Below, piece by piece: positions 2,350 through 36,453 of a stretch of 52,506 nt of DNA (position 1 is the first letter of the stretch; the number at the start of each line of letters is the position of its first letter). The notes beneath the pieces are model-generated. The model had not been told where the DNA came from. It saw only the letters and a list, made by a program, of their open reading frames with translations, and searched no databases. The translations under genes and the position numbers were made by a program. The DNA is from Neolecta irregularis DAH-3 (lineage: Eukaryota): positions 1-52,506 of the forward strand of contig LXFE01000143.1 in assembly GCA_001929475.1 (NCBI GenBank). Direction: 5' to 3'.

Positions 2350-3327
2350 CAATGACTTGTCCAAGTTGTGTTGGTGAAAATGTGCTCTATAGCTGATACT
2401 GAGGATACATTTCATTGTTTGATATTGAATGTAGTACCTAGCAGCTGCATTTCCATTAGGGTTGATACCTGAACTTGTGTGGTGGAAGCCCGAGTCTGAG
2501 AGGCAGGAGCGGGCAGCAAATGTGATGACTGACGAAGGCAATTTGCGGGAAGATGAGGTGTCTGAAGTTGAAGTGCCAGCTGCAGGTGGGAAATCGCGAT
2601 TGGCAGGCATGCGATCTACTGGGCGGCAGGGTTAGGGTTAGGGAGTCCTTTAGGCGTGCGACCAGCGGGACTAGGCCTGCAGTGGGAATCGCTCGTCGAT
2701 CTCTGCGGGCGACGGCAGCTTCTACGAAGGAGTCTTGGGCGAGGGGCCCTGATTTGTCCAGGGGGTTTGAGGTCTCGGGGAGGGTTCTGGAATGGAAGGT
2801 TTGTTTTGGGGGTGGGATCGGCAAGATCTGAGTGATCTGAAGGCTCTGGAAGACCTGGAATAGGGGTGTCGAGGTGTTTCTGAACAAATTGGAAGAGGTT
2901 TTTGAATATGATAATTAGGTGATTCGTTTGTGTTGTGATGGACATTTGTGAAAGGTTGCCATCTCAACTTCACTTGATGCAAAGAGCAATACCTGAGGCT
3001 ATTCACATGGCATCTAGATGGTCTGCGAATCAATTGAGTCCGGGTTGCAGCACAGGCCAGACACGATGATGTGAGAGAACTTGTGGCAGATGTTGATCGT
3101 GGGGAGGGTGTGGTGACAGGGCAGCAGCAGCCTACAGGGTCAGTTCGAGGAAAAAGGAGAAGACGGCATAGGGCAACAGGGTGAGAGAGATAGGGGTGGC
3201 ATGGAAAAATATGAATTAAAATAATTGTTCATATGTACTATCTAATATCAGGCAGGTGATATGGCCCGTTTAGGCCCTGGGCACAATGGGCCAGGCGTTC
3301 TCCTTGGCCCGCCCAACCGCAACACTG
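2350..3327 (-). mobile_element. Degenerate DNA transposon (hAT-like) fragment with CAGTGTTG terminus
   Basis: Reverse complement of the end reads cagtgttgcggttgggcgggcca...gcctggcccat...aaacgggc, homologous to the element end at 22463; interior is GC-rich with broken minus-strand ORFs; left boundary uncertain. Confidence 0.45.
2628..2643 (+). repeat. Short telomeric repeat AGGG(TTAGGG)2
   Basis: agggttagggttaggg read directly. Confidence 0.6.
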
Positions 3328-3868
3328 CTTCCTAGTCTCTACAAACTTCTCTATTCGACGAATATAAGCAAGATTGCAACAAGGGAGTTGTCTATACACC
3401 TGGGCAGGCAGCGAGATCTTTTGGATCAGCGCATCTCATGTTGCATACTCGCTTTGAGAAAACTTATTTACTATTGCAATGGTTTATTCCACATTTTCTG
3501 ATTACCATGAGAATTCGACTTTTAGATTGAATATCATTGGAATATGATAAATCCATCGTGGATCTTTTACCTTATCAACGTGCGACATTGCCTCAGTGTA
3601 TAACATGTCGATGCTCTCGCGTTCACGACCTTGACATTGCCCAACTAATGACAGACAGGTCTAGCCTACCTGAAAATAATTATTACATCAGTTATCTATT
3701 TCATTCACGTTTGACATAAAATTGAGCAATCTGTTTGTAGAATCTTAAATTTCTGCTTGCGCATCTGATCTTAATAAAAACGCCATATCGCCATGCCGAT
3801 TCTCCAGTGTTTCACGGGACAATCTTCCGTTGCTGACCTTAAACTACAACCACCCCTTGACGACTATT

Positions 3869-10648: not shown

Positions 10649-10660
10649 CCTGGGCAATTT

Positions 10661-10685
10661 CTAACCCTAACCCTAACCCCTAACC
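10661..10685 (+). repeat. Interstitial telomeric repeat, about 4 x CCCTAA (one unit with an extra C)
   Basis: ctaaccctaaccctaacccctaacc, 13 bp after the terpene synthase stop. Confidence 0.85.
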
Positions 10686-12007: not shown

Positions 12008-13726
12008 CTAATCACGACCAACATTTCTTACTAATTGAATAAATTCATCCTCTTTGCCTAGATCCCATGGTCGAGGTTTAAACCGAAATATATTTAAAAC
12101 ATCCGCCTTGTCACCGTATAGTAAACCCTCCATCTTAGAAATCACACCTAGTAATGCTCGAAGGAGAAATCTGTCGCCTTCAAAGAAATAAATATCGCAA
12201 ATGCGAAATACGATGCCCAGGGGCGCATGGGCAGCGAATAATGAAAGTACAATAGGTTCGAGGTACAATTGTACGGGAAGCTCGAGGGCAATATGGAGAT
12301 GGCAATACAACTTTGGAAGTTTCTTTTGAAACCGATTTGAGAAAATGCGTGAAAAATTTTCGATCTGTTTGTCAGATATGTATTACTAGTACATACAGCT
12401 AGAGTATCGCATGTTAAAAGGGCGAGAGGGATTGGACGATTAAGGATGTTTGCCAAGGCGATGAATGCGAGTTGTCTGGGGATATTGAGTAATAGAATAG
12501 CTGCGATCAAATGAGCTCCGGGGACATATCCGATATCCTTTCGATAGAAAGCATATGCCTGATAATCAATCATTAATTTTGATAGACATACCATCAACAA
12601 ATCGGTTAGATCTTGCTTCAATGAGGTTTGAAAGATCTTTAGTCCAGGGAATGTTGCATTTACATCAAGATAAATCTGTTCAAACGTGGCGCGTGAATTC
12701 TCGTCTCTTCTGGGATTACACTTTTTCGCTCGATCGAGCGCAATTTGAAAGGTGTTTGGGCTCAAGGCTAAAGCATTTCCAATTGCTTTCTCCCAGACTT
12801 GACCGCGAACTATTGGAGGAAGCCCACTCCACCACAGCTCACGAACACCCTCGTCGTCGATACTAAAGTAAGCGTTGAGTAGAAGGAAAGTTACGCTGTA
12901 TCCCAGTTTGGTATCAAGGTTTTTTCCCACACTTTAGCAGTTTCAGCTAATGACCGTTCGCGTTCGATCCGTTCTATTATTTCTCGCTCCTTTTTTTCCT
13001 TTTCTGAAATTAATTAATTTTGATAAAGTAAGGCACACCAGCTCGAACAGCCTTCTTCATCATACGCTCATATTCCGCCAAGTGCTTTTGGTCTTCTTTC
13101 TTGCTTTTTGGAGGAAGCCAACTGGGTCGAGTTTTGCTCAAGATCTTTTGCTTTTCTTTGCTGATTGGCATTGGATCAATGACTATCTCGGAGGGTCTAG
13201 CGGGAAGTGATTGGGTCTTTCCCACCCGATAATGGGTGATTGTAAGAGATGTTTGGGCAGCAAGACGGGCAGTGATTTCTCTGGCATCTGGGCCAAGAGC
13301 TTTGTGGTACGTACGGGAATATTGAGATCTGATTTTTATGGGGCTGAGAGGGACGTTGTAGAATACTGTATCCTCTGGTACGTCGTCGTCGTCGTCGCAT
13401 TCTTGTTCAAGTTCTTTGATGGTCTTTCTGTGGGGTTTCAAACATGAAGATCCGCCAGTGCTTCTGCGTCTTTGCTCACGGAAGCCGCTGTGCAAATGAT
13501 CGGCAGAGGTTGTAGGCAGCGTATACATTGTGGAAGGGGTAATTTTGCGGGATCCTGCGAGCTGACGGCCCAAGAATGGCGTGCTGGCGGATTTGGGGAG
13601 TTTTCGTGGGTATACATCGTCGAGCTGGACGTCTTCAAAGTCGTCTCCAAAGTCCATTTTGCAAGAATGGGCCATGGACGAGCGGGAATGGGTGGACATT
13701 GTTTCTGCCTTGTCGTAGACGGCCAT
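12008..13726 (-). CDS. TBC-domain Rab GTPase-activating protein (TBC1D12/14-like, with Sbe2-like TRPSWLPPK motif); 4 introns
   Basis: LWWSGLPPIVRGQVW, IYLDVNATFP, YRKDIGYVPG, RICDIYFFEG. Confidence 0.8.
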
Positions 13727-14003
13727 TCTGGTGGTTGGTTGCTTATGTTGGGATGTATGCGCTTTTCTATATGCACAGACTGTATCGCAGTGTATGCGCA
13801 GTGAATGCCGTCTACTGCTGTCTGACCATTTCTAGGATGGTTCTATACCACATAATATACATGCATATACTGGAAAATATATATACTAGCTGTTCTGAGC
13901 CAATGTATGTATATATGTCTGCCCAAACTAAAGGCCAAGAGTGCGACGAAAGCGGCTGGCCCCAAACGCCATTGCTCTGTCCACTCAATTCCATTCTCCC
14001 GCT

Positions 14004-14305
14004 ATGCCGTCGCCCATTCTCACTCAGAAGCAAGCTGGCCAAAACATGCTCGATCTCAAACTGCGCCGCCTGCAGGAACTGAACGCGCGACTCGCTGAAG
14101 ACCTTGAGCGGCCCCGTATCCCCGTAAGCGAAGCCTGCCAATCGTAAGTAACCCGCTGCCTCAGTGCGAATTTGACCCCACCAGATTGCTCGCCCATGCA
14201 AAGTCAACAAAAGACCATATGGTGCCCTCTATCTGGGGTCCAATAGACAAGAAAGAAGATCCATATACCCTTCAGAGCACCGCGGGTTGCTGTGTCGCTA
14301 TGTAG
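14004..14305 (+). CDS. Heterotrimeric G-protein gamma subunit; 1 intron (14144-14184)
   Basis: LKLRRLQELNARLAEDLERPRIPVSEAC...DHMVPSIWG...CCVAM (CCAAX). Confidence 0.92.
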
Positions 14306-14434
14306 AATTGAGTTGCAGGGGCCAGAAATGTCCTGTATGCCATTTATATCTATCCTTTTGTTATTGTCTTCTTCATCTCAGCACGGTCAAATCGAGATTA
14401 CATTTCTTAGTTACTTTATTAATAAATGATTAGT

Positions 14435-17400
14435 TTAGTACCGGATCTTTTGAAAGACGTGCAGATTCCGGTAATGTACAGCTTTTACCAATATCCCCTT
14501 GTCGTCTTTAACAGACTGCTTTGACATTTCTCGTAACCATCTCAAAACGTCTATATAACGGCCCTTTTTGGCAAAAACATACAAGAAGGCATGATATCCC
14601 AACCTAGGGTTTAGGGGGTCGGCTCGTTGGAATATTTATACATACCATTTAATCCCTTCATTGGTAATAGAGCACTTGCAGTTTCGCGCCAACCCTCGGA
14701 TAATGGTACACTGAAAGTCCAGTATCTGAGATACCACGACTAGAAATAAGTCCATGATAAATATGATTCTCACACTTAATATACTCTCCCAGCGGCTTCG
14801 GGGAAAAGGAAATATATGCGTGTGTACGCATAGCCGCAAGAATGAGATTCTGAAAGATGTTTACAAGAACTGTATATCGCGAATTAAACTCTTCGTCGAA
14901 AAACATTGCGTTTCCCTTCAATCTCATCGAGCTACGGTAAACACAAACCAGTCAATTGGAAACATATACTTGAATATCTTTGACAAAATCGCGGTCCCTG
15001 GATTTTTGTTATATTCCACGGTCAACGTATCCTTGATATCTAAAGTGAACATTCGTCTTTACAAAGACTTACGAACACCATCGTACCGTGAATAGTCTTG
15101 TCGAACATCGAGCGTCTCCGTATTGAGAATATTCCCACAGTAAGGAAATTCTCGAGTCCCGACAAGTCGAGCAACTTTGTGATTATTAATCGTAATTTCA
15201 AAATTGACAAGAGATTTGTCTGGGTTGACAAAACAGCCGTATGCGGGGTTTCCAACAAGATCAGAACAAACCCCTCAAAAACAAGTACCGTCGTGCATGA
15301 TTTGGAGAAACTCTTGAGCATTGTTACGATCAGTCGTGATAAACAGAAAATCATCCACGATACGAATCAACACCTTCAATTTTAAATCAAGTTGACTAAA
15401 AGCACACTCACTCCACTCTGTTCCGTCAAAAATTTGATACAACGTCGCTCGAAATGGCCGTAGAAAAAGTTGCACAGGATAGTTGAAAGGACTGAGCCTT
15501 GGGGAATTCCCTGCACTTGTCTATAGTACCGCTTTCCAATCTACTGGTATCAGCCTAGATCTGGAAAATGGGCTACCTTGACCAGATTATTTGTAATATG
15601 CTGTGTTAATAAATTCAAAACCTCAGACTTCTCCATCAACCCGTAAACCACTCTGTCGACTAAAATCGAATGACGCATGGTATCATTGATAAGTTCATTG
15701 GCAAATTGTTCAAATTGCATCAATTCGAAAGATGGTCGGGCTTTGGTATAAAAGCGCCGGCGAGGACAGTCCAACTTGCAACAAACACTCGCATACTTTT
15801 GTAAAAGATATTCGTCTTCAGTCAACATCTCTTCAATAATCGCCAGCAATTGATCCTGCGAAATAGTATCAAAGCAAGCCTGAATATCTACCTTTGCGAA
15901 ATACAACTTTGGTCATAAAGGTAAGTGACAGAGGTGAGGAAACGCCTTACTTTGGGCGGGGACACTTTTTGAACGTTCTTAGCTTTTGATACATTTCTGT
16001 TGTAGAGAATGCAGAGGCTCCAAGGAGCGATGGGTCTCGTTGCTGCATTGTCAAGCAAGGCGCAATTATACCAGACCTTTTCAAACTGAAGGATGCTATG
16101 CACAGGCCCAAGCACAGAATTAATGCTCGACTGCAAATAAGTATGTGTAGATCCATTATCCCTAATTTCCTAGATCTGTAAGTCTTAATAGACAAAAGGG
16201 CGTTAACTGTTCTCAGTCCCCTTCTTCGGAGATTCATAATCGGCCGTACACCGGCTTCTTTAGGTAGTAAACGAATGAACGAGAAAGACAACTGTCTCCT
16301 CGCCAGAATCCTCGTTGCTTCAATCTACGTCAGCATGGAATACTCTAGGGAATATACCAATGGAACGTCCTGAAACATGGAATGCTTCAAATGATTCAAC
16401 GCTGGTTCCGAGATTTTTTTCCATAAATCATGTCGAAAATACAATACCCTATTTCGCGTCTTTGCGCATTCCGAAATGTAAAAGTGCGAACGGAGTAATG
16501 GAATCACAATGGAATCAAAAATCCAATAAATAAACTCTGCCAGAATTTCTTTACGTTTAGTGATATCCGAGTGGCAGGTTTTTTGGCAGAGTTGCATGGA
16601 CTTAGGAGATAACCAGGTCATTTCCTTGATCTGGAATTAAAGATGAACAATGGGTTCGTACCTTGATGTTTTGTAAAACTTGATGTAGGGAAAAGAGTTC
16701 ATAGCGTCGAAGACGAATAAAAGAGTCAATGTCTAAAGTTGAGAATTTTCGCCTGGGACAAATAGTACAAGACATTACAACCTGAAAATTTCGAGTACTA
16801 CCCCAAAAGGTCTTCGGGATAACGCGAGATATAGATGCTCGAATAAATGCAGATACCTCTTTATAAATAAAATATTGAAAACGATTACCTCGATATGCGA
16901 AGAATCAAGTTCCGTGAGACTCGATTTCTTTTTCGAGAGATATGCCAGTTGGCTAATAGCTATACTAGCTGCCTCGTTCGTAACGGTCAATGGAGCCTGA
17001 CTCATTGGCCATGAATCGTGTTCAATGATCTCCTCATGGAAATATTCGACAGACCCATCTAAGCGCTATAATAAGCAGCGCAAACGGCTCAAAACATACA
17101 GGAACAGGACAATAATATTTTACCATGGCAGAATAGGAACATCGCGAATGTAACTTGATCATACGCGAAACCACGTTTAAAAGATCCATCAATCTTGTTG
17201 GAATTTTGTATCCCTTTTGTCTTGCCGCGCTTAAGATTTCCTTGTCACGGACAGTATAATCTTGAAAAGGCTGAATTGTCTTCTTGCGATCAACAGTGCA
17301 AGTAAATACATTATGCAGTCCAAACTGTCGTGGAAACATGTACTGGAGGATAGTAGAGCAATGGTCAAGATCATCCGGGTTTTTATATCGATTAAAGATA

Positions 17401-18475
17401 TCTTTAGGTCAGGGCACAGATGAGGTGACTCCAGATACGTATTCGACGAAGACCGAACTGGACTTCATTTTTGATGTTGTAAGCTGGACGTGCGTAAAAT
17501 AAGCGAGATCGAACGAATTGAATAGCGTTGGGCGAGGAACTTTATAGGTTTAAAACACGATTCAAATGATTTGCATACGCGTGTGAAGAATTTAGACGAG
17601 GGTATTTAATTGGTTTTTCTGAGCACATCGAGTCCGAGTAGGCTCGTTTATGGTTCCTAGGAAGAGGTGGCCTTTTAAAATCTGGCACGGCGAGATCATC
17701 AAGGTCGATTTTTCTTTTTTTGTCAATTTTAGTGGGGATAGGAAGTGGTTTCAAATCACTCAACGGGGTTCCTATATATTTAGAAAAAGAATTACAAGAA
17801 CAGCGTCACCAGTCAACTGATAGTAATTATCCTTCTCGAGACGCACAAACAAACTAAAACTCAACAAAAGGAGATGCATCAATTCCTCTCCAATGCTATG
17901 CGTCAGTCTAGAGGAAATGTGTCAGAAACACATATGCAGCAAGTCTTGCCAGGTATCATTTCTGAGGGTACTGACATGTGAATTGGGGAATACGCTAACA
18001 AACTCGGCACCAGCAGGGCCAACTGCAGAAACAACGACGCGGTCGCTTCCCTGAGACTGTGAGTCTGGAAGGCAAAAGAAGAGGATACCCAGATGTATCC
18101 GTGCGTGAGAAGATTGTTTGGTTTTTCCTTGCGCTTGATTCCTTGTTTGAAGAGCATTCTAATTACTCGGTAAACTACCTGAATGTCAATGGGGATGGTG
18201 CAGAAGCATACATCTGTCTGTGATGCACTTGGAGGGGATGGAATGTGGTGTAGAGGTTGCGGCAGGGAGTTGCCATTCGAGCACACCAGGATGCCGTCTA
18301 ACAATTCGATTAGATGGAGATGCTCTTTAGGTAGATGTGAAGTGTCTTTCTGCGGAAAAGATACGCAAGGTAAAGCAAACTCGACGATGATCCTGAGTGG
18401 GACAACAGAGGAATAAAACCTCTTTAAAAGGGACAAGGCGGAGACGGGCTCGTATTGAGATGTAAAAGGTGGCAT
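14435..18475 (-). CDS. TERT: Telomerase reverse transcriptase, about 21 introns
   Basis: T motif FYISE...LYFRHDLW, motifs 1/2 IRLLPK...RPIMNL, motif A LYFAKVDIQACFDTI, B' GIPQGSVLS, C IRIVDDFL, D GNPAYGCFVNPDKS, MFPRQFGLHNVF. Confidence 0.95.
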
Positions 18476-19720
18476 GAAGATTGAGCTACATGAGCTGGAT
18501 TGTGAATCGAGTATCAAATTTCAAGGCCGAGTTCAAAGTATATACTGCGAATCAGGCTGGAAGTGGTTGGCGTTGCAAGGAATTGCTGAGTGTCGTGTCG
18601 TGAGGCATGTTAAACACTAGCAATTATCTCAAATGCGTATATATACATTTCATATCACTGTCGCTGGTAGAGGCTTGCAGCGATTGCCGCATTATGAAGT
18701 AGATATTATGCAAAACATTACTCGAGGGCTTTGTTAGGTCCAAGAGTTTCCCATTTTGTTTAGAGACGTATATCTTCATGCATTCTTGTTTGTGAGCAAG
18801 AAAAGAGAACACCGGAAGCAAATATAAACTCATATTTAGGATATCTATAAATCATAAATGAAAAGGAATGAGCTGTTTTGATAGTACTGAAATATGACAA
18901 AGTTTCCCTCTCAAGTATTACCAAAACCACCTTTCAATTTAAAGAGGGGACAATGGTTGTAAGGAAATTTCCAAATTACCCATAATTTGGATCCCTGTTA
19001 TTCATGATATTGTTTCCAGCACTAACAGAAGAATGGAATGGATCCTTCCTGTAGGCATAGGAATTCGATAGCTTGAACAAAATGAGATTATTCTTTATAC
19101 AAGGACTCTAGTGTTATATACCTTATGATAATATAAAATAGCTATATAATGTGATTACTGAAACATTCGGGCGGGTGGCCAACTGGTGTAATATTGTTTA
19201 AAGAGGCGCCTATATATCAGAGATTATTCATTTCATATGACTAATTTGTGCAAATGTCTCGAGAAAGGGTTATGCACAGCATACACAATGAGAGAAGTGT
19301 ACTTTTGGATGGTGGTTCGAGGTTGGGAAATGGATGTCGAGTGGGGGGCCAACCAGAATACCAAATATTCTAATACCATAATTAGCTACTCATCTCCATC
19401 TAGCACTCATCTTCCATTTACATATATTGACCAATTACCATGGTCATTCACCCACTAGAATTGTTTATCTGCATTTTGCATCATCTACTCTTAGCATTAT
19501 CGACCATAGTTGTGCATATACCCCAGCCCATCGTCTTCCTTTGTCATCTTCTATTTCTAGCATTCACCTACCATCTGCATCTACCATTCATCTACCATCT
19601 AATATACCATCTACCTCTAGCATTTTTCCAGCATTCACCTTCAAGCACTTAACCCGCATTTACCATCTGCCTCAAAATTTTATTCCATCAAATTCAAACG
19701 CATCTGCTCCTATTCTCCAA

Positions 19721-34186: not shown

Positions 34187-36453
34187 ATGGTTTCTTCAGA
34201 TCCACAGAACCAACAGAAGCATCCCAATAACGAAGCTCATGTGAGCGGAAAAAGATCCAGTGAACCAAAAGGTGGTAAGGCAAATCTCAAATATGGACCA
34301 CAAAACCAAGCCTCCTTGAAAACTGCACCACCAAATACAGATTCCCCAGATATAAAGAGACAAATTGCAAACATAAAAGATCTTGCAATAGCTCCTCAGT
34401 CGGAAGATGAATCTGAAATTTGCTCCATTTGTGCGGAATTCGTCATTTACTACGCTTCGTCGCCTTGCAATCACAGAATCTGCCATGTGTGCGCACTACG
34501 TCTTCGCGTTTTATACAAAACTATTAATTGTGCATATTGCAAGGTTCGTAATTAGTGTTTCTCGCTATCTGAGATCTAGACGGAGCAAATTCACGTCATC
34601 TTTACAAAGGATGCGGAAAGGTTATACCTGGATTTCAAGCCCAGTGAACTCGCATACGAAGATAAGAAACTCGGTATATCGTTCGAGTCAGAGCAGATGA
34701 TGGAAGATTCGCTATTGCTGTTGCGTTTTAATTGTCCCGATCCTTTATGTGTGGTTGCCTGCAAGGGCTGGCCCGATCTACGACTACATGTTCGCCAAGC
34801 GCATGAGAAACTCTTGTGGTGTGTTGTATATCCTTGCAGAATTGTCTAATATGCACAGTTCTTTATGTACGCAGCACAAAAAGGTCTTTACTCATGAACA
34901 TACATTATTCAGTCAGAAAGAACTCACTACTCACTTCAAGCTTGGCGATCAAAGCTCAGATCAGTTCGACAGCACCGGTTTTAAAGGCCACCCGGAATGC
35001 GGATTTTGTCGAAAGTCCTTCTACGATGACGACGAGTTATTTAAACATTGCCGTGAACACCATGAAAAATGTCATCTCTGCGACTGCAACGGCGGACAAC
35101 CTCAATATTTTATTAATTATGAAAGCCTTGAGAATCATTTCCGACGTGATCATTTCATGTGTCCTTTTCCTCAATGTTTGGAACAAAAGTTCGTCGTCTT
35201 TGCATCTGAACTCGATTTTAAGGCTCACCACATTGAAAAACACCCGCATGCACTGTCGTCTCAGGAGTTCAAGGACATTCGTAGAGTTACGACATCCTTC
35301 ATGTACGAAGAACCATCACGGTATAATCGAATTAAACGGCCTCAGCCTACACCTCAACCACCTGAACCACCGAGAGATGAATCTTCGATGACCAGGCAGG
35401 AACGAGGAGTCCTCAGAGCTGTTCAGGCTGGTCTCATTCCTGCCACAACACCTTCTGGCCGCCAGTACACAGTTCCAAGGGGTTCTCAGCAGTCTGTACC
35501 CGTTGGGTATGTTGACAGCACGCTTCACAATCGTCCAACTGAAATGGAAAATGCATTTCCCTCATTAGCAGGATATTTAATATCTCAGGATATGTATTTA
35601 TTTGCTATTGTCTGATCAATAGCAAACATTTCTCGCTCAAGTCTTCCTGTAGCTGCTCTACAAGATGACGGACGAAATGGCATAATTTTTGAACGTTTAC
35701 TACGTTCAATGAAAGGTAACGAGTCAAATTTTCAAATATTCCGCATTAATATATCGGCTTACCATGATTCTCAAATTTCTGCAGAAGATATGATAGACTC
35801 GATTTGGGACTTGTTTGGATTGAAAGCGGAAGAATTGGGAAAGGTTGTCAGTCAATGTGCAGATCTGTTCGATCGTGAAGAACTCAAAGTGCAGCTTCTG
35901 TCTGCATGGAATGACTGGAAAGTCACCGTATGGCGTTTTTCGAGTTTTACGCTAATATCAGAACCAATCGCAAAAATCTCATCTTGGAATTTCTGGATTG
36001 ACATCCTATAATGCTATTGGCAATGTATCTCGTGTCCTGAAAATCAAGTCCTCGACAGCATCGACTACCCATCCTCGAGGCAAACACCAGAATGTCTGGA
36101 ATATGATTGAACAAGCAGCAAATCGCAATATTCGTCCGGATAATGTTTCTCTACGCAACCAAAATAATTCTCGAAACAGGACTCCAAGAACAGTATGGCC
36201 TGCTGAAAGTACATCGAATAGTCTGGGTAGCCAGCGCGAACTCGAGTTTCCCTCATTGCCCACTTCAAAGGCAAGTCAACCTCACAAAAACGTCGATAGG
36301 AGCGAATCTGGTTCTCGAGGCAACGGGATCGCATGGGACGGTGCATACCAGTGTGATAATTTGCCCTCAAACGCTCCAGAATTGGGAGATGGTTCTCGTC
36401 AAGGCAGGAGGAAGCAAAAGGGCAAACAAGTCATATTCAAGATAGGATTATGA
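34187..36453 (+). CDS. HEL2: RING E3 ligase Hel2/ZNF598; 4 introns
   Basis: RING CSICA..CNHRICHVCALRLRVLYK..CAYC; GFKGHPECGFC..FYDDDELFKHCREHHEKC; FPSL motifs. Confidence 0.9.

What the first reader, a model, noticed from the sequence alone, without database searches (positions are those of the whole stretch)
15914..15950. Second GT-TG intron in TERT, just before catalytic motif A, with an out-of-frame AG decoy
Minus strand: CCAAA|gtaaggcgtttcctcacctctgtcacttacctttatg|ACCAAAGTTGTATTTC gives PKPKLYFAKVD. The first AG after the branch motif (7 nt downstream) is out of frame, so productive mRNA needs the proximal TG to win over a nearby AG. Inference: two weak acceptors flanking the RT core could limit or regulate telomerase through unproductive splicing.
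Basis: partly seen in the sequence, partly recalled or inferred. Interest (0 to 1): 0.75.

Follow-up and report, generated by a model that had tools for sequence, protein, structure and literature searches.

The report
Telomerase intron cut at TG
A 37-base intron in the telomerase gene of the fungus Neolecta irregularis is cut out at a TG, where related fungi have the usual AG, even though an AG lies seven bases further on; a worn-down proofreading loop in this fungus's splicing protein Prp18 may be why.

Summary
Observation confirmed. A spliced contig (run X2) removes exactly 15950-15914, GT..TG. A DNA contig at depth 428 shows no difference from the window, so an assembly error is very unlikely. 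The TG join gives a 1095-aa TERT; the AG 7 nt downstream gives a stop at 694 aa.

The regulatory reading is not supported. No AG junction was listed. In 39 of 60 distinct fungal TERT loci an intron ends at the same place, always in AG, and the 'decoy' is a lysine codon present in 18 of 37 of them. The TG lies 8 nt after the branch-like A, the mode for this genome; the AG lies 15 nt after it.

New lead: the single Prp18 found differs at 10 of 22 conserved loop positions versus 2 of 30 elsewhere, the most of 150 homologs. In yeast, deleting this loop activates an AUG acceptor (PMC10711555). Causation is untested.

The scan had already noted non-AG introns and the branch ruler elsewhere in this genome. 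The public TERT model is wrong here.

The parts
14435..18475 (-). TERT coding region, 21 introns of 31-42 nt, 1095 aa
   Evidence: Model built. 12 joints are listed in X2; the 5' introns agree with public model P0001
15914..15950 (-). 37-nt phase-2 GT-TG intron between the end of motif 3 and motif A
   Evidence: X2 record 11 skips exactly these 37 nt, ambiguity 0
15945..15950 (-). 5' splice site GTAAGG
   Evidence: Sequence; joint
15921..15925 (-). Branch-like CTTAC; its A (15922) is 8 nt from the TG end and 15 nt from the AG end
   Evidence: Best-scoring site under a branch model fitted on 371 predicted non-TERT introns; lariat not mapped
15914..15915 (-). TG 3' splice site (trinucleotide ATG), at the site where other fungal TERT genes have AG
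   Evidence: 39 of 60 distinct loci have an AG-ending intron at this position
15907..15908 (-). Competing AG, part of the AAG lysine codon; would give a 44-nt intron and a frameshift
   Evidence: 694-aa product; present at +7 in 18 of 37 orthologous introns
15951..16042 (-). 92-nt upstream exon, C-terminal part of motif 3
   Evidence: Aligns without gaps to three homologs in the TG frame; motif 3 lies between motifs 2 and A (PMC2847249, passages)
15577..15913 (-). 337-nt downstream exon beginning with motif A; the codon for the motif A Asp is at 15888-15886
   Evidence: X2 record positions 606-942; alignment
15888..15890 (-). Premature TAG reached if the AG acceptor is used
16043..16076 (-). 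34-nt GT-AG intron that is spliced in X2 but retained in the public model to offset AG use
15253..15288 (-). Other GT-TG intron of TERT (36 nt, motif D); branch-like CTGAT 8 nt from the end; next AG 33 nt downstream
   Evidence: X2 skips 36 nt here, ambiguity 2; 31 of 47 distinct loci have an AG-ending intron at this position
16857..16888 (-). 32-nt intron ending in GAG, 2 nt after an AAG

Best explanation
This is an old, ordinary major-spliceosome intron whose AG acceptor has been replaced by TG in Neolecta, and the TG is the working acceptor. Shown: exact removal at TG in the one spliced contig; same site and phase as AG-ending introns of other fungal TERT genes. Inferred: after branching at A15922 the spliceosome docks the G that lies at the preferred 6-9 nt distance, keeps the pairing of the last G with the first intron G, and tolerates U in place of A at -2. 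The AG 7 nt further on is only a lysine codon and lies outside the preferred range. Geometry alone favours TG about 19-fold, too little against a normal spliceosome's AG preference, so second-step selection must also be loose in this species. The best candidate cause (about 40%) is the eroded conserved loop of its Prp18, acting like the yeast loop-deletion mutant. Any AG product is probably noise removed by NMD, not a telomerase control.
For: (joint; no indels). (only the TG join keeps both the motif 3 end and motif A; 4 of 4 in-frame GT/GC-AG alternatives lose one of them; blastp bits against three homologs 533/428/154 versus 516/405/139 for AG plus retention). (39 of 60 loci with an AG-ending intron at this site; 36 of these 39 score closer to Coprinopsis TERT than to Neolecta's). 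(370 of 417 predicted introns are 31-42 nt; 78% of branch-to-end distances are 6-9 nt, mode 8; four TG introns of this window sit at 8, 8, 8 and 6 nt). (Prp18 loop 10 of 22 versus 2 of 30, Fisher p = 0.002; loop intact in Saitoella and Pneumocystis). (one Prp18 locus). (U6 core, U2 branch-pairing hexamer, Prp8 alpha-finger region and both U2AF small-subunit zinc fingers look ordinary). PMC10711555 sections 15, 16, 18 (AUG, ACG, UGG, UUG are the best-used BG sites without Prp18; loop deletion raises use of the MUD1 AUG site).
Against: One RNA-derived run, contigs only, same study as the DNA run: junction ratios are unknown. The branch A is predicted, not mapped; a weaker branch-like ATGAC lies 6 nt before the AG (likelihood ratio 0.98 versus 4.23). 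The length and branch models come from ab initio predictions seeded on 19 TERT introns (17 recovered). My gene finder with non-AG ends allowed did not recover this intron. In yeast Prp18 is dispensable when the branch-to-end distance is short (PMC10711555, introduction passage), so the loop may have eroded as a result of short distances. Some other homologs also deviate in the loop (9, 8 and 7 mismatches). Prp22 was not examined.
Confidence: 0.75

Rival explanations
1. One reading: TG and AG compete in a regulated way, and the two weak acceptors limit telomerase through unproductive splicing and NMD.
For: AG use gives a premature stop before motif A with 7 introns downstream; Upf1 is present; a weak branch-like motif lies 6 nt before the AG; human TG-AG tandems lie within 28 nt and some vary by tissue (PMC2374985, passages); 2 TG ends in 21 introns has P = 0.02 if the genome rate is only 1%.
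Against: No AG joint among those listed; the AG is a codon by-product shared by 18 of 37 orthologs; the motif D TG intron has no usable AG nearby; TG ends with the same geometry occur in unrelated genes.
Confidence: 0.1
2. Ruler without a special trans-acting lesion: very short branch-to-end distances let any spliceosome bypass Prp18/Slu7 and accept the nearest G. The Prp18 loop decayed afterwards under relaxed selection. This competes only with the Prp18 step of the best explanation.
For: Distances are mostly 6-9 nt; Prp18 and Slu7 are dispensable for short distances in yeast (PMC10711555; 10.1101/212811).
Against: The Prp18 helical body is retained (2 of 30 conserved positions changed) while the loop alone is altered; Slu7 and Fyv6/FAM192A are retained; in yeast the loop deletion is worse than the null for an AUG site.
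Confidence: 0.35
3. A local RNA structure or cis element hides the AG and presents the TG.
For: The lowest-energy fold pairs the intron 3' end with motif A coding sequence and leaves the AG in a loop.
Against: z = -1.38, 14 of 200 shuffles fold as well, and the fold would bury the branch motif and TG rather than the AG; it cannot explain the other TG introns.
Confidence: 0.05
4. Artefact: a one-base assembly error (for example in the A run at 15970-15966) hides a canonical GT-AG intron, or the T of TG is a miscall.
For: One more base upstream would put the AG in frame with a plausible peptide; X1 may be the source of the assembly.
Against: X1 contig at depth 428 and X2 show no difference or indel, and X2 joins at the TG; the TG position matches the orthologous acceptor.
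Confidence: 0.02

Closest known systems
Non-YAG (BG) 3' splice sites activated in Saccharomyces cerevisiae lacking Prp18 or its conserved loop (Roy et al. 2023, PMC10711555; abstract, passages and sections 15, 16, 18 read)
   Same: AUG acceptor as in MUD1; lies upstream of a competing AG; under 10 nt from the branch point; a GAG 2 nt after an AG also seems to be used in this gene; the Prp18 loop is altered.
   Different: In yeast these are aberrant sites in a mutant. Here the site is the in-frame working acceptor in a wild organism, and the Prp18 change is a set of substitutions whose effect is untested.
TG 3' splice sites of human U2-type introns, TG-AG tandems (Szafranski et al. 2007, PMC2374985; passages read)
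   Same: U2-type intron with TG end and an AG within 28 nt.
   Different: Human TG sites are only alternative sites, and the paper found no ortholog with AG in place of TG. Here the orthologous site is AG in every case scored, only the TG join was seen, and the sister TG intron has no usable AG.
Rare GT-TG introns in curated fungal annotation (Ganoderma lingzhi, PMC11590231; passages read)
   Same: GT-TG introns in a fungus.
   Different: There 22 cases, 0.024% of sites, no more frequent than other odd ends. Here 2 of 21 introns of one gene are RNA-supported and G-ending non-AG calls are favoured.
Unproductive alternative splicing of human TERT (PMC8150890 and others; search listing and start of abstract only)
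   Same: Splicing choices in the reverse transcriptase domain can remove activity.
   Different: No unproductive isoform was detected here and no regulation was shown.

Membership tests
U2-type spliceosomal intron | GT 5' splice site | tested here: met
   GTAAGG
U2-type spliceosomal intron | Branch motif able to pair with U2 near the 3' end | tested here: inconclusive
   CTTAC at the modal distance and U2 with the usual pairing hexamer; no lariat data
U2-type spliceosomal intron | Exact removal from mRNA | tested here: met
   X2 record 11, 37 nt, ambiguity 0
U2-type spliceosomal intron (canonical GT-AG class) | Terminal AG | tested here: not met
   Ends in TG in DNA and RNA; it is a non-canonical variant descended from an AG-ending intron
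U12-type intron | U12 donor and branch consensus, and minor snRNAs in the genome | not tested
   The donor does not resemble the U12 consensus as I recall it; no search for U11 or U12 was run
Human-type TG-AG tandem acceptor | AG within 28 nt of the TG | tested here: met
   7 nt
Human-type TG-AG tandem acceptor | Both acceptors used; TG never the sole site | tested here: inconclusive
   Only the TG joint listed, but contigs drop rare forms
Human-type TG-AG tandem acceptor | TG kept in orthologs, not replaced by AG | tested here: not met
   AG in 28 of 28 distinct orthologous junction groups; these are distant fungi, and no second Neolecta species was available
Prp18-loop-deficient acceptor choice (yeast mutant phenotype) | BG acceptor close to the branch point and upstream of an AG | tested here: met
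   ATG at 8 nt, AG at 15 nt
Prp18-loop-deficient acceptor choice (yeast mutant phenotype) | Conserved loop of Prp18 altered | tested here: met
   10 of 22 conserved loop columns differ; N258H, W261N, V268A, H271K, R273K and H285K occur in 0 of 144-149 homologs
Prp18-loop-deficient acceptor choice (yeast mutant phenotype) | The altered loop lowers 3' splice-site fidelity | not testable with these tools
   Needs a complementation or in vitro splicing assay
Regulated unproductive splicing coupled to NMD | Alternative product carries a premature stop, and NMD genes exist | tested here: met
Regulated unproductive splicing coupled to NMD | Unproductive isoform is made and varies with condition | not testable with these tools
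   Contigs of one RNA-derived run only
Regulated unproductive splicing coupled to NMD | Decoy site conserved beyond coding need | tested here: not met
   Lysine codon is AAG in 18 and AAA in 14 of the orthologous loci; one of the two search patterns required this lysine

The most novel reading that the evidence does not exclude
Neolecta is a natural Prp18-loop mutant. Its spliceosome sets the intron end mainly by distance from the branch point and needs little more than a terminal G. Ancestral AG acceptors can therefore drift to TG, CG or GG and stay the working site, even just before the catalytic motif of telomerase and even when an AG lies 7 nt away.
Probability: 0.4. Interest if true: 0.82.

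Novelty: new variant of a known kind. Interest (0 to 1): 0.62.

Why it matters
The 3' AG is among the least variable signals in eukaryotic genes. In humans a TG end was reported to work only beside an AG and never to replace one (PMC2374985). Here a TG has replaced the ancestral AG in front of a catalytic motif and beats a nearby AG. If the eroded Prp18 loop is the cause, the question of what enforces AG at the second step becomes testable with a natural variant, by a simple loop swap in yeast. In practice, the public TERT model of this fungus has a wrong motif 3 region and lacks the motif D stretch, so AG-only annotation misreads its genes. The idea that this intron regulates telomerase has no support so far.

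Tried and rejected
Homopolymer or one-base assembly error: rejected.

New intron made by an insertion with a 7-nt target duplication (the same 7 nt stand at both ends): rejected, because the intron position is shared with distant fungi and another of the 21 introns has an equally long end repeat.

Canonical GT/GC-AG alternatives: 4 keep the frame, all lose motif 3 or motif A residues.

RNA structure hiding the AG: z = -1.38.

Loss of U2AF small subunit, Slu7 or Fyv6, or changes in U2, U6 or the Prp8 alpha-finger region: all found and ordinary where examined; U1, U5, Prp22 and the Prp8 beta-hairpin were not examined.

Motif-only scan for branch distance: underpowered (92 sites). First gene-finder run diverged and was discarded; one search used a wrong start and one wrong intron boundary and was redone.

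Non-AG gene finding: 4 of 5 and 8 of 17 non-AG calls end in G (P about 0.007 and 0.011 against 0.2), but it found only 2 of the 4 TG introns known in this window and missed this one, so it gives no reliable rate.

No RNA holder was listed by the run search; X2 turned out to be spliced only when laid.

Literature: 0 papers hold 'Neolecta' + 'non-canonical' + 'splice site'; the listings showed none on Neolecta splice sites or its Prp18 by title or start of abstract. The genome paper did not appear in these listings and no supplements were read, so prior mention there cannot be excluded. Earlier scan notes on this Prp18: none by words or sequence.

Full report
What is there. The minus strand of 18475-14435 encodes a fungal telomerase reverse transcriptase split by 21 introns of 31-42 nt. 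The identical public protein P0001 is named by NCBI as TERT of Neolecta irregularis; the genome has 14,182,604 bases and one match to this gene. The finding is the 37-nt phase-2 intron 15950-15914, between the end of motif 3 and motif A. Motif 3 is placed between motifs 2 and A by PMC2847249 (passages). The intron starts GTAAGG, has CTTAC at 15925-15921 and ends ATG. The first AG after the branch motif ends at 15907.

Observation. I laid two runs on 13000-19500. X1 gave a contig of depth 428 over 13541-19500 with no substitution or indel. X2 is labelled 'DNA?', but its contigs skip introns in TERT and in two neighbouring transcripts, so I infer it is RNA-derived. Its record 11 joins 15951 to 15913, skipping 37 nt with GT..TG ends and no ambiguity. 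It also skips 36 nt at the motif D intron (ambiguity 2, fitting GT..TG). Of 15 joints listed (8 not shown), 12 are in TERT: 10 GT-AG and 2 GT-TG. Exon lengths in my model reproduce the record positions exactly (606 at 15913, 943 at 15540), so there is no hidden indel. X2 has 5 records on the stretch and no AG joint is listed. Limits: X1 may be the source of the assembly, both runs are from one study, and contigs drop rare forms, so no ratio can be given.

Consequences of each choice. TG gives 1095 aa. AG gives a frameshift and a stop at 694 aa. Retention stops at 689 aa. Four GT/GC-AG alternatives keep the frame but lose motif 3 or motif A residues. AG use together with retention of the upstream 34-nt intron gives an open 1104-aa frame; the public model does this, but X2 splices that intron, and this form aligns worse to all three homologs (516/405/139 bits versus 533/428/154). 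The public model also drops 26 residues of the motif D region after the other TG intron.

Origin. A metagenome scan returned 80 fungal TERT loci (best 80 of 137). After dropping 19 duplicates and 1 too near a contig end, 60 were scored. The script placed an intron end at the same site and phase in 39, with any dinucleotide allowed there: 37 ended in AG (16 CAG, 15 TAG, 5 AAG, 1 GAG) and 2 were spurious calls in open frames. It placed 3 elsewhere, of which 2 show AG at the same site by eye and 1 is intronless. The corrected tally is 39 of 60 with an AG-ending intron at this site and 21 without an intron. Of the 39, 36 score closer to Coprinopsis TERT than to Neolecta's (no tree was built), and 28 distinct junction groups all have AG. 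For the motif D intron, 31 of 47 scored loci have an intron at the same site, all ending in AG (33 dropped: 19 without anchor, 14 duplicates). Both TG ends therefore stand where an old AG stood. The competing AG is the AAG codon of the lysine before motif A; 18 of the 37 loci have the same AG at +7, and 14 use AAA. One of the two search patterns required that lysine, which inflates its apparent conservation but not the AAG/AAA split.

Geometry. A self-trained gene finder on 366,815 bases (36 sequences; seeded on 19 TERT introns, 17 recovered) predicted 417 introns, 370 of them 31-42 nt. A branch model fitted on 371 non-TERT introns gave a YTRAY-like motif with 78% of distances at 6-9 nt, mode 8. 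The TG is 8 nt from the A of CTTAC. The AG is 15 nt from it, or 6 nt from a weaker ATGAC. Length times branch score favours TG about 19 to 1. The other three TG introns of the window lie at 8, 8 and 6 nt; two of those (5923-5889, 23532-23498) were leads from earlier notes, and I checked only their sequence. A 19-fold edge would not overcome the AG preference of a normal spliceosome (GT-TG is 0.024% of sites in Ganoderma; PMC11590231, passages), so I infer that second-step selection is also loose. Against my reading: with all 15 non-AG ends allowed at equal prior, the finder made 5 and 17 non-AG calls, of which 4 and 8 end in G, but it missed this intron.

Machinery. U6 (ACAGAGA box and AGC triad), U2, the Prp8 region holding the alpha-finger (close to human), the U2AF small subunit with both zinc fingers (judged against recalled consensus), Slu7, Fyv6/FAM192A and Upf1 are present. 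Prp18 is the exception. One locus was found with two queries. Against the 149 best homologs of 1307 hits, it differs at 10 of 22 columns that are at least 80% conserved in residues 254-292, and at 2 of 30 such columns elsewhere (Fisher p = 0.002). N258H, W261N, V268A, H271K, R273K and H285K each occur in none of the 144-149 homologs with a residue there. It is the most deviant of the 150; the next have 9, 8 and 7 mismatches. The two closest hits, from Saitoella complicata and Pneumocystis oryctolagi, keep the loop. This stretch aligns to the yeast conserved region, which reaches into the active site beside positions -3 and -4 of the 3' splice site (10.1101/212811, passages). In yeast, loss of Prp18 activates BG sites, with AUG among the best used, and sites as close as 7 nt to the branch; deleting the loop raises use of the MUD1 AUG site more than the null does (PMC10711555, sections 15, 16, 18). 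The same paper says Prp18 is dispensable for short branch distances, so erosion could be a result rather than a cause.

Mechanism, step by step. Shown: exact removal at TG; orthologous AG; modal distance; altered Prp18 loop. Inferred: branching at A15922; docking of the G at the preferred distance with U tolerated at -2; weak rejection because of the loop. Overall confidence 0.75; the Prp18 step about 0.4.

The need for TG to win is right. A regulatory decoy is not supported: no AG product was listed, the AG is a codon by-product, the sister TG intron has no usable AG (next one 33 nt downstream), and 2 TG ends in 21 introns has P between 0.02 and 0.28 for genome rates of 1-5%. I could not fix that rate, so mild enrichment in TERT is not excluded.

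Comparison and novelty. It works like the BG acceptors of yeast Prp18 mutants and resembles human TG-AG tandems (PMC2374985, passages), but fails that class on orthology, since that paper found no AG ortholog of a TG site. It is a non-canonical variant of a U2-type intron. My searches found no paper on Neolecta splice-site anomalies (listings only); the genome paper did not appear and no supplements were read. Earlier notes of this scan already report non-AG introns and the branch ruler on other pieces of this genome. Verdict: real; new variant of a known kind; interest 0.62.

Noticed in passing
G000:C702 about 2500-3700, minus strand (loci L002-L004; protein P0005): Prp18 conserved loop altered at 10 of 22 highly conserved positions, including W, H, R and H that are nearly invariant in 149 homologs; helical body intact.
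   Followed up: yes
window 19244-19210 and 19121-19072, minus strand: A 441-nt spliced X2 contig upstream of TERT, with no long reading frame, removes an intron with TT..AG ends (non-GT donor) and a 50-nt GT-AG intron. Could be a non-coding RNA or a long 5' leader.
   Followed up: partly
window 16888-16857, minus strand: TERT intron that must end in GAG, 2 nt after an AAG; the same +2 GAG pattern is reported for yeast lacking Prp18. GAG ends make up 19 of 371 predicted introns.
   Followed up: partly
window 5923-5889 and 23532-23498, minus strand: Two more TG-ending intron candidates (from earlier notes) with branch motifs 8 and 6 nt from the end.
   Followed up: partly
window 35594-35635 plus strand; L012 6740-6708, L071 1210-1171, L073 1923-1883, L083 3676-3640 (minus), L079 1669-1703 (plus): Ab initio candidates for CG-, GG- and TG-ending introns; unverified.
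   Followed up: no
L005 (G000:C1963:269-417, minus strand): The U6 snRNA gene carries a spliceosomal intron just before the AGC triad; an AG right after its branch motif is skipped.
   Followed up: no
G000:C2538, C4303 and C2568 (L046, L047, L064): Besides an intact Prp8 stretch on a 1.3-kb contig there are at least two diverged, broken partial Prp8 copies.
   Followed up: no
window about 10660-10685, plus strand: Three telomere-like CTAACCC repeats in tandem inside the contig, and similar ones in L040 near 9326.
   Followed up: no
window 16768-16631: The two X2 TERT contigs break around introns 16768-16733 and 16661-16631, hinting at retention or alternative use there rather than at the TG introns. 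The public model also differs from X2 by 2 residues at 16661-16631 and at 15411-15374.
   Followed up: no
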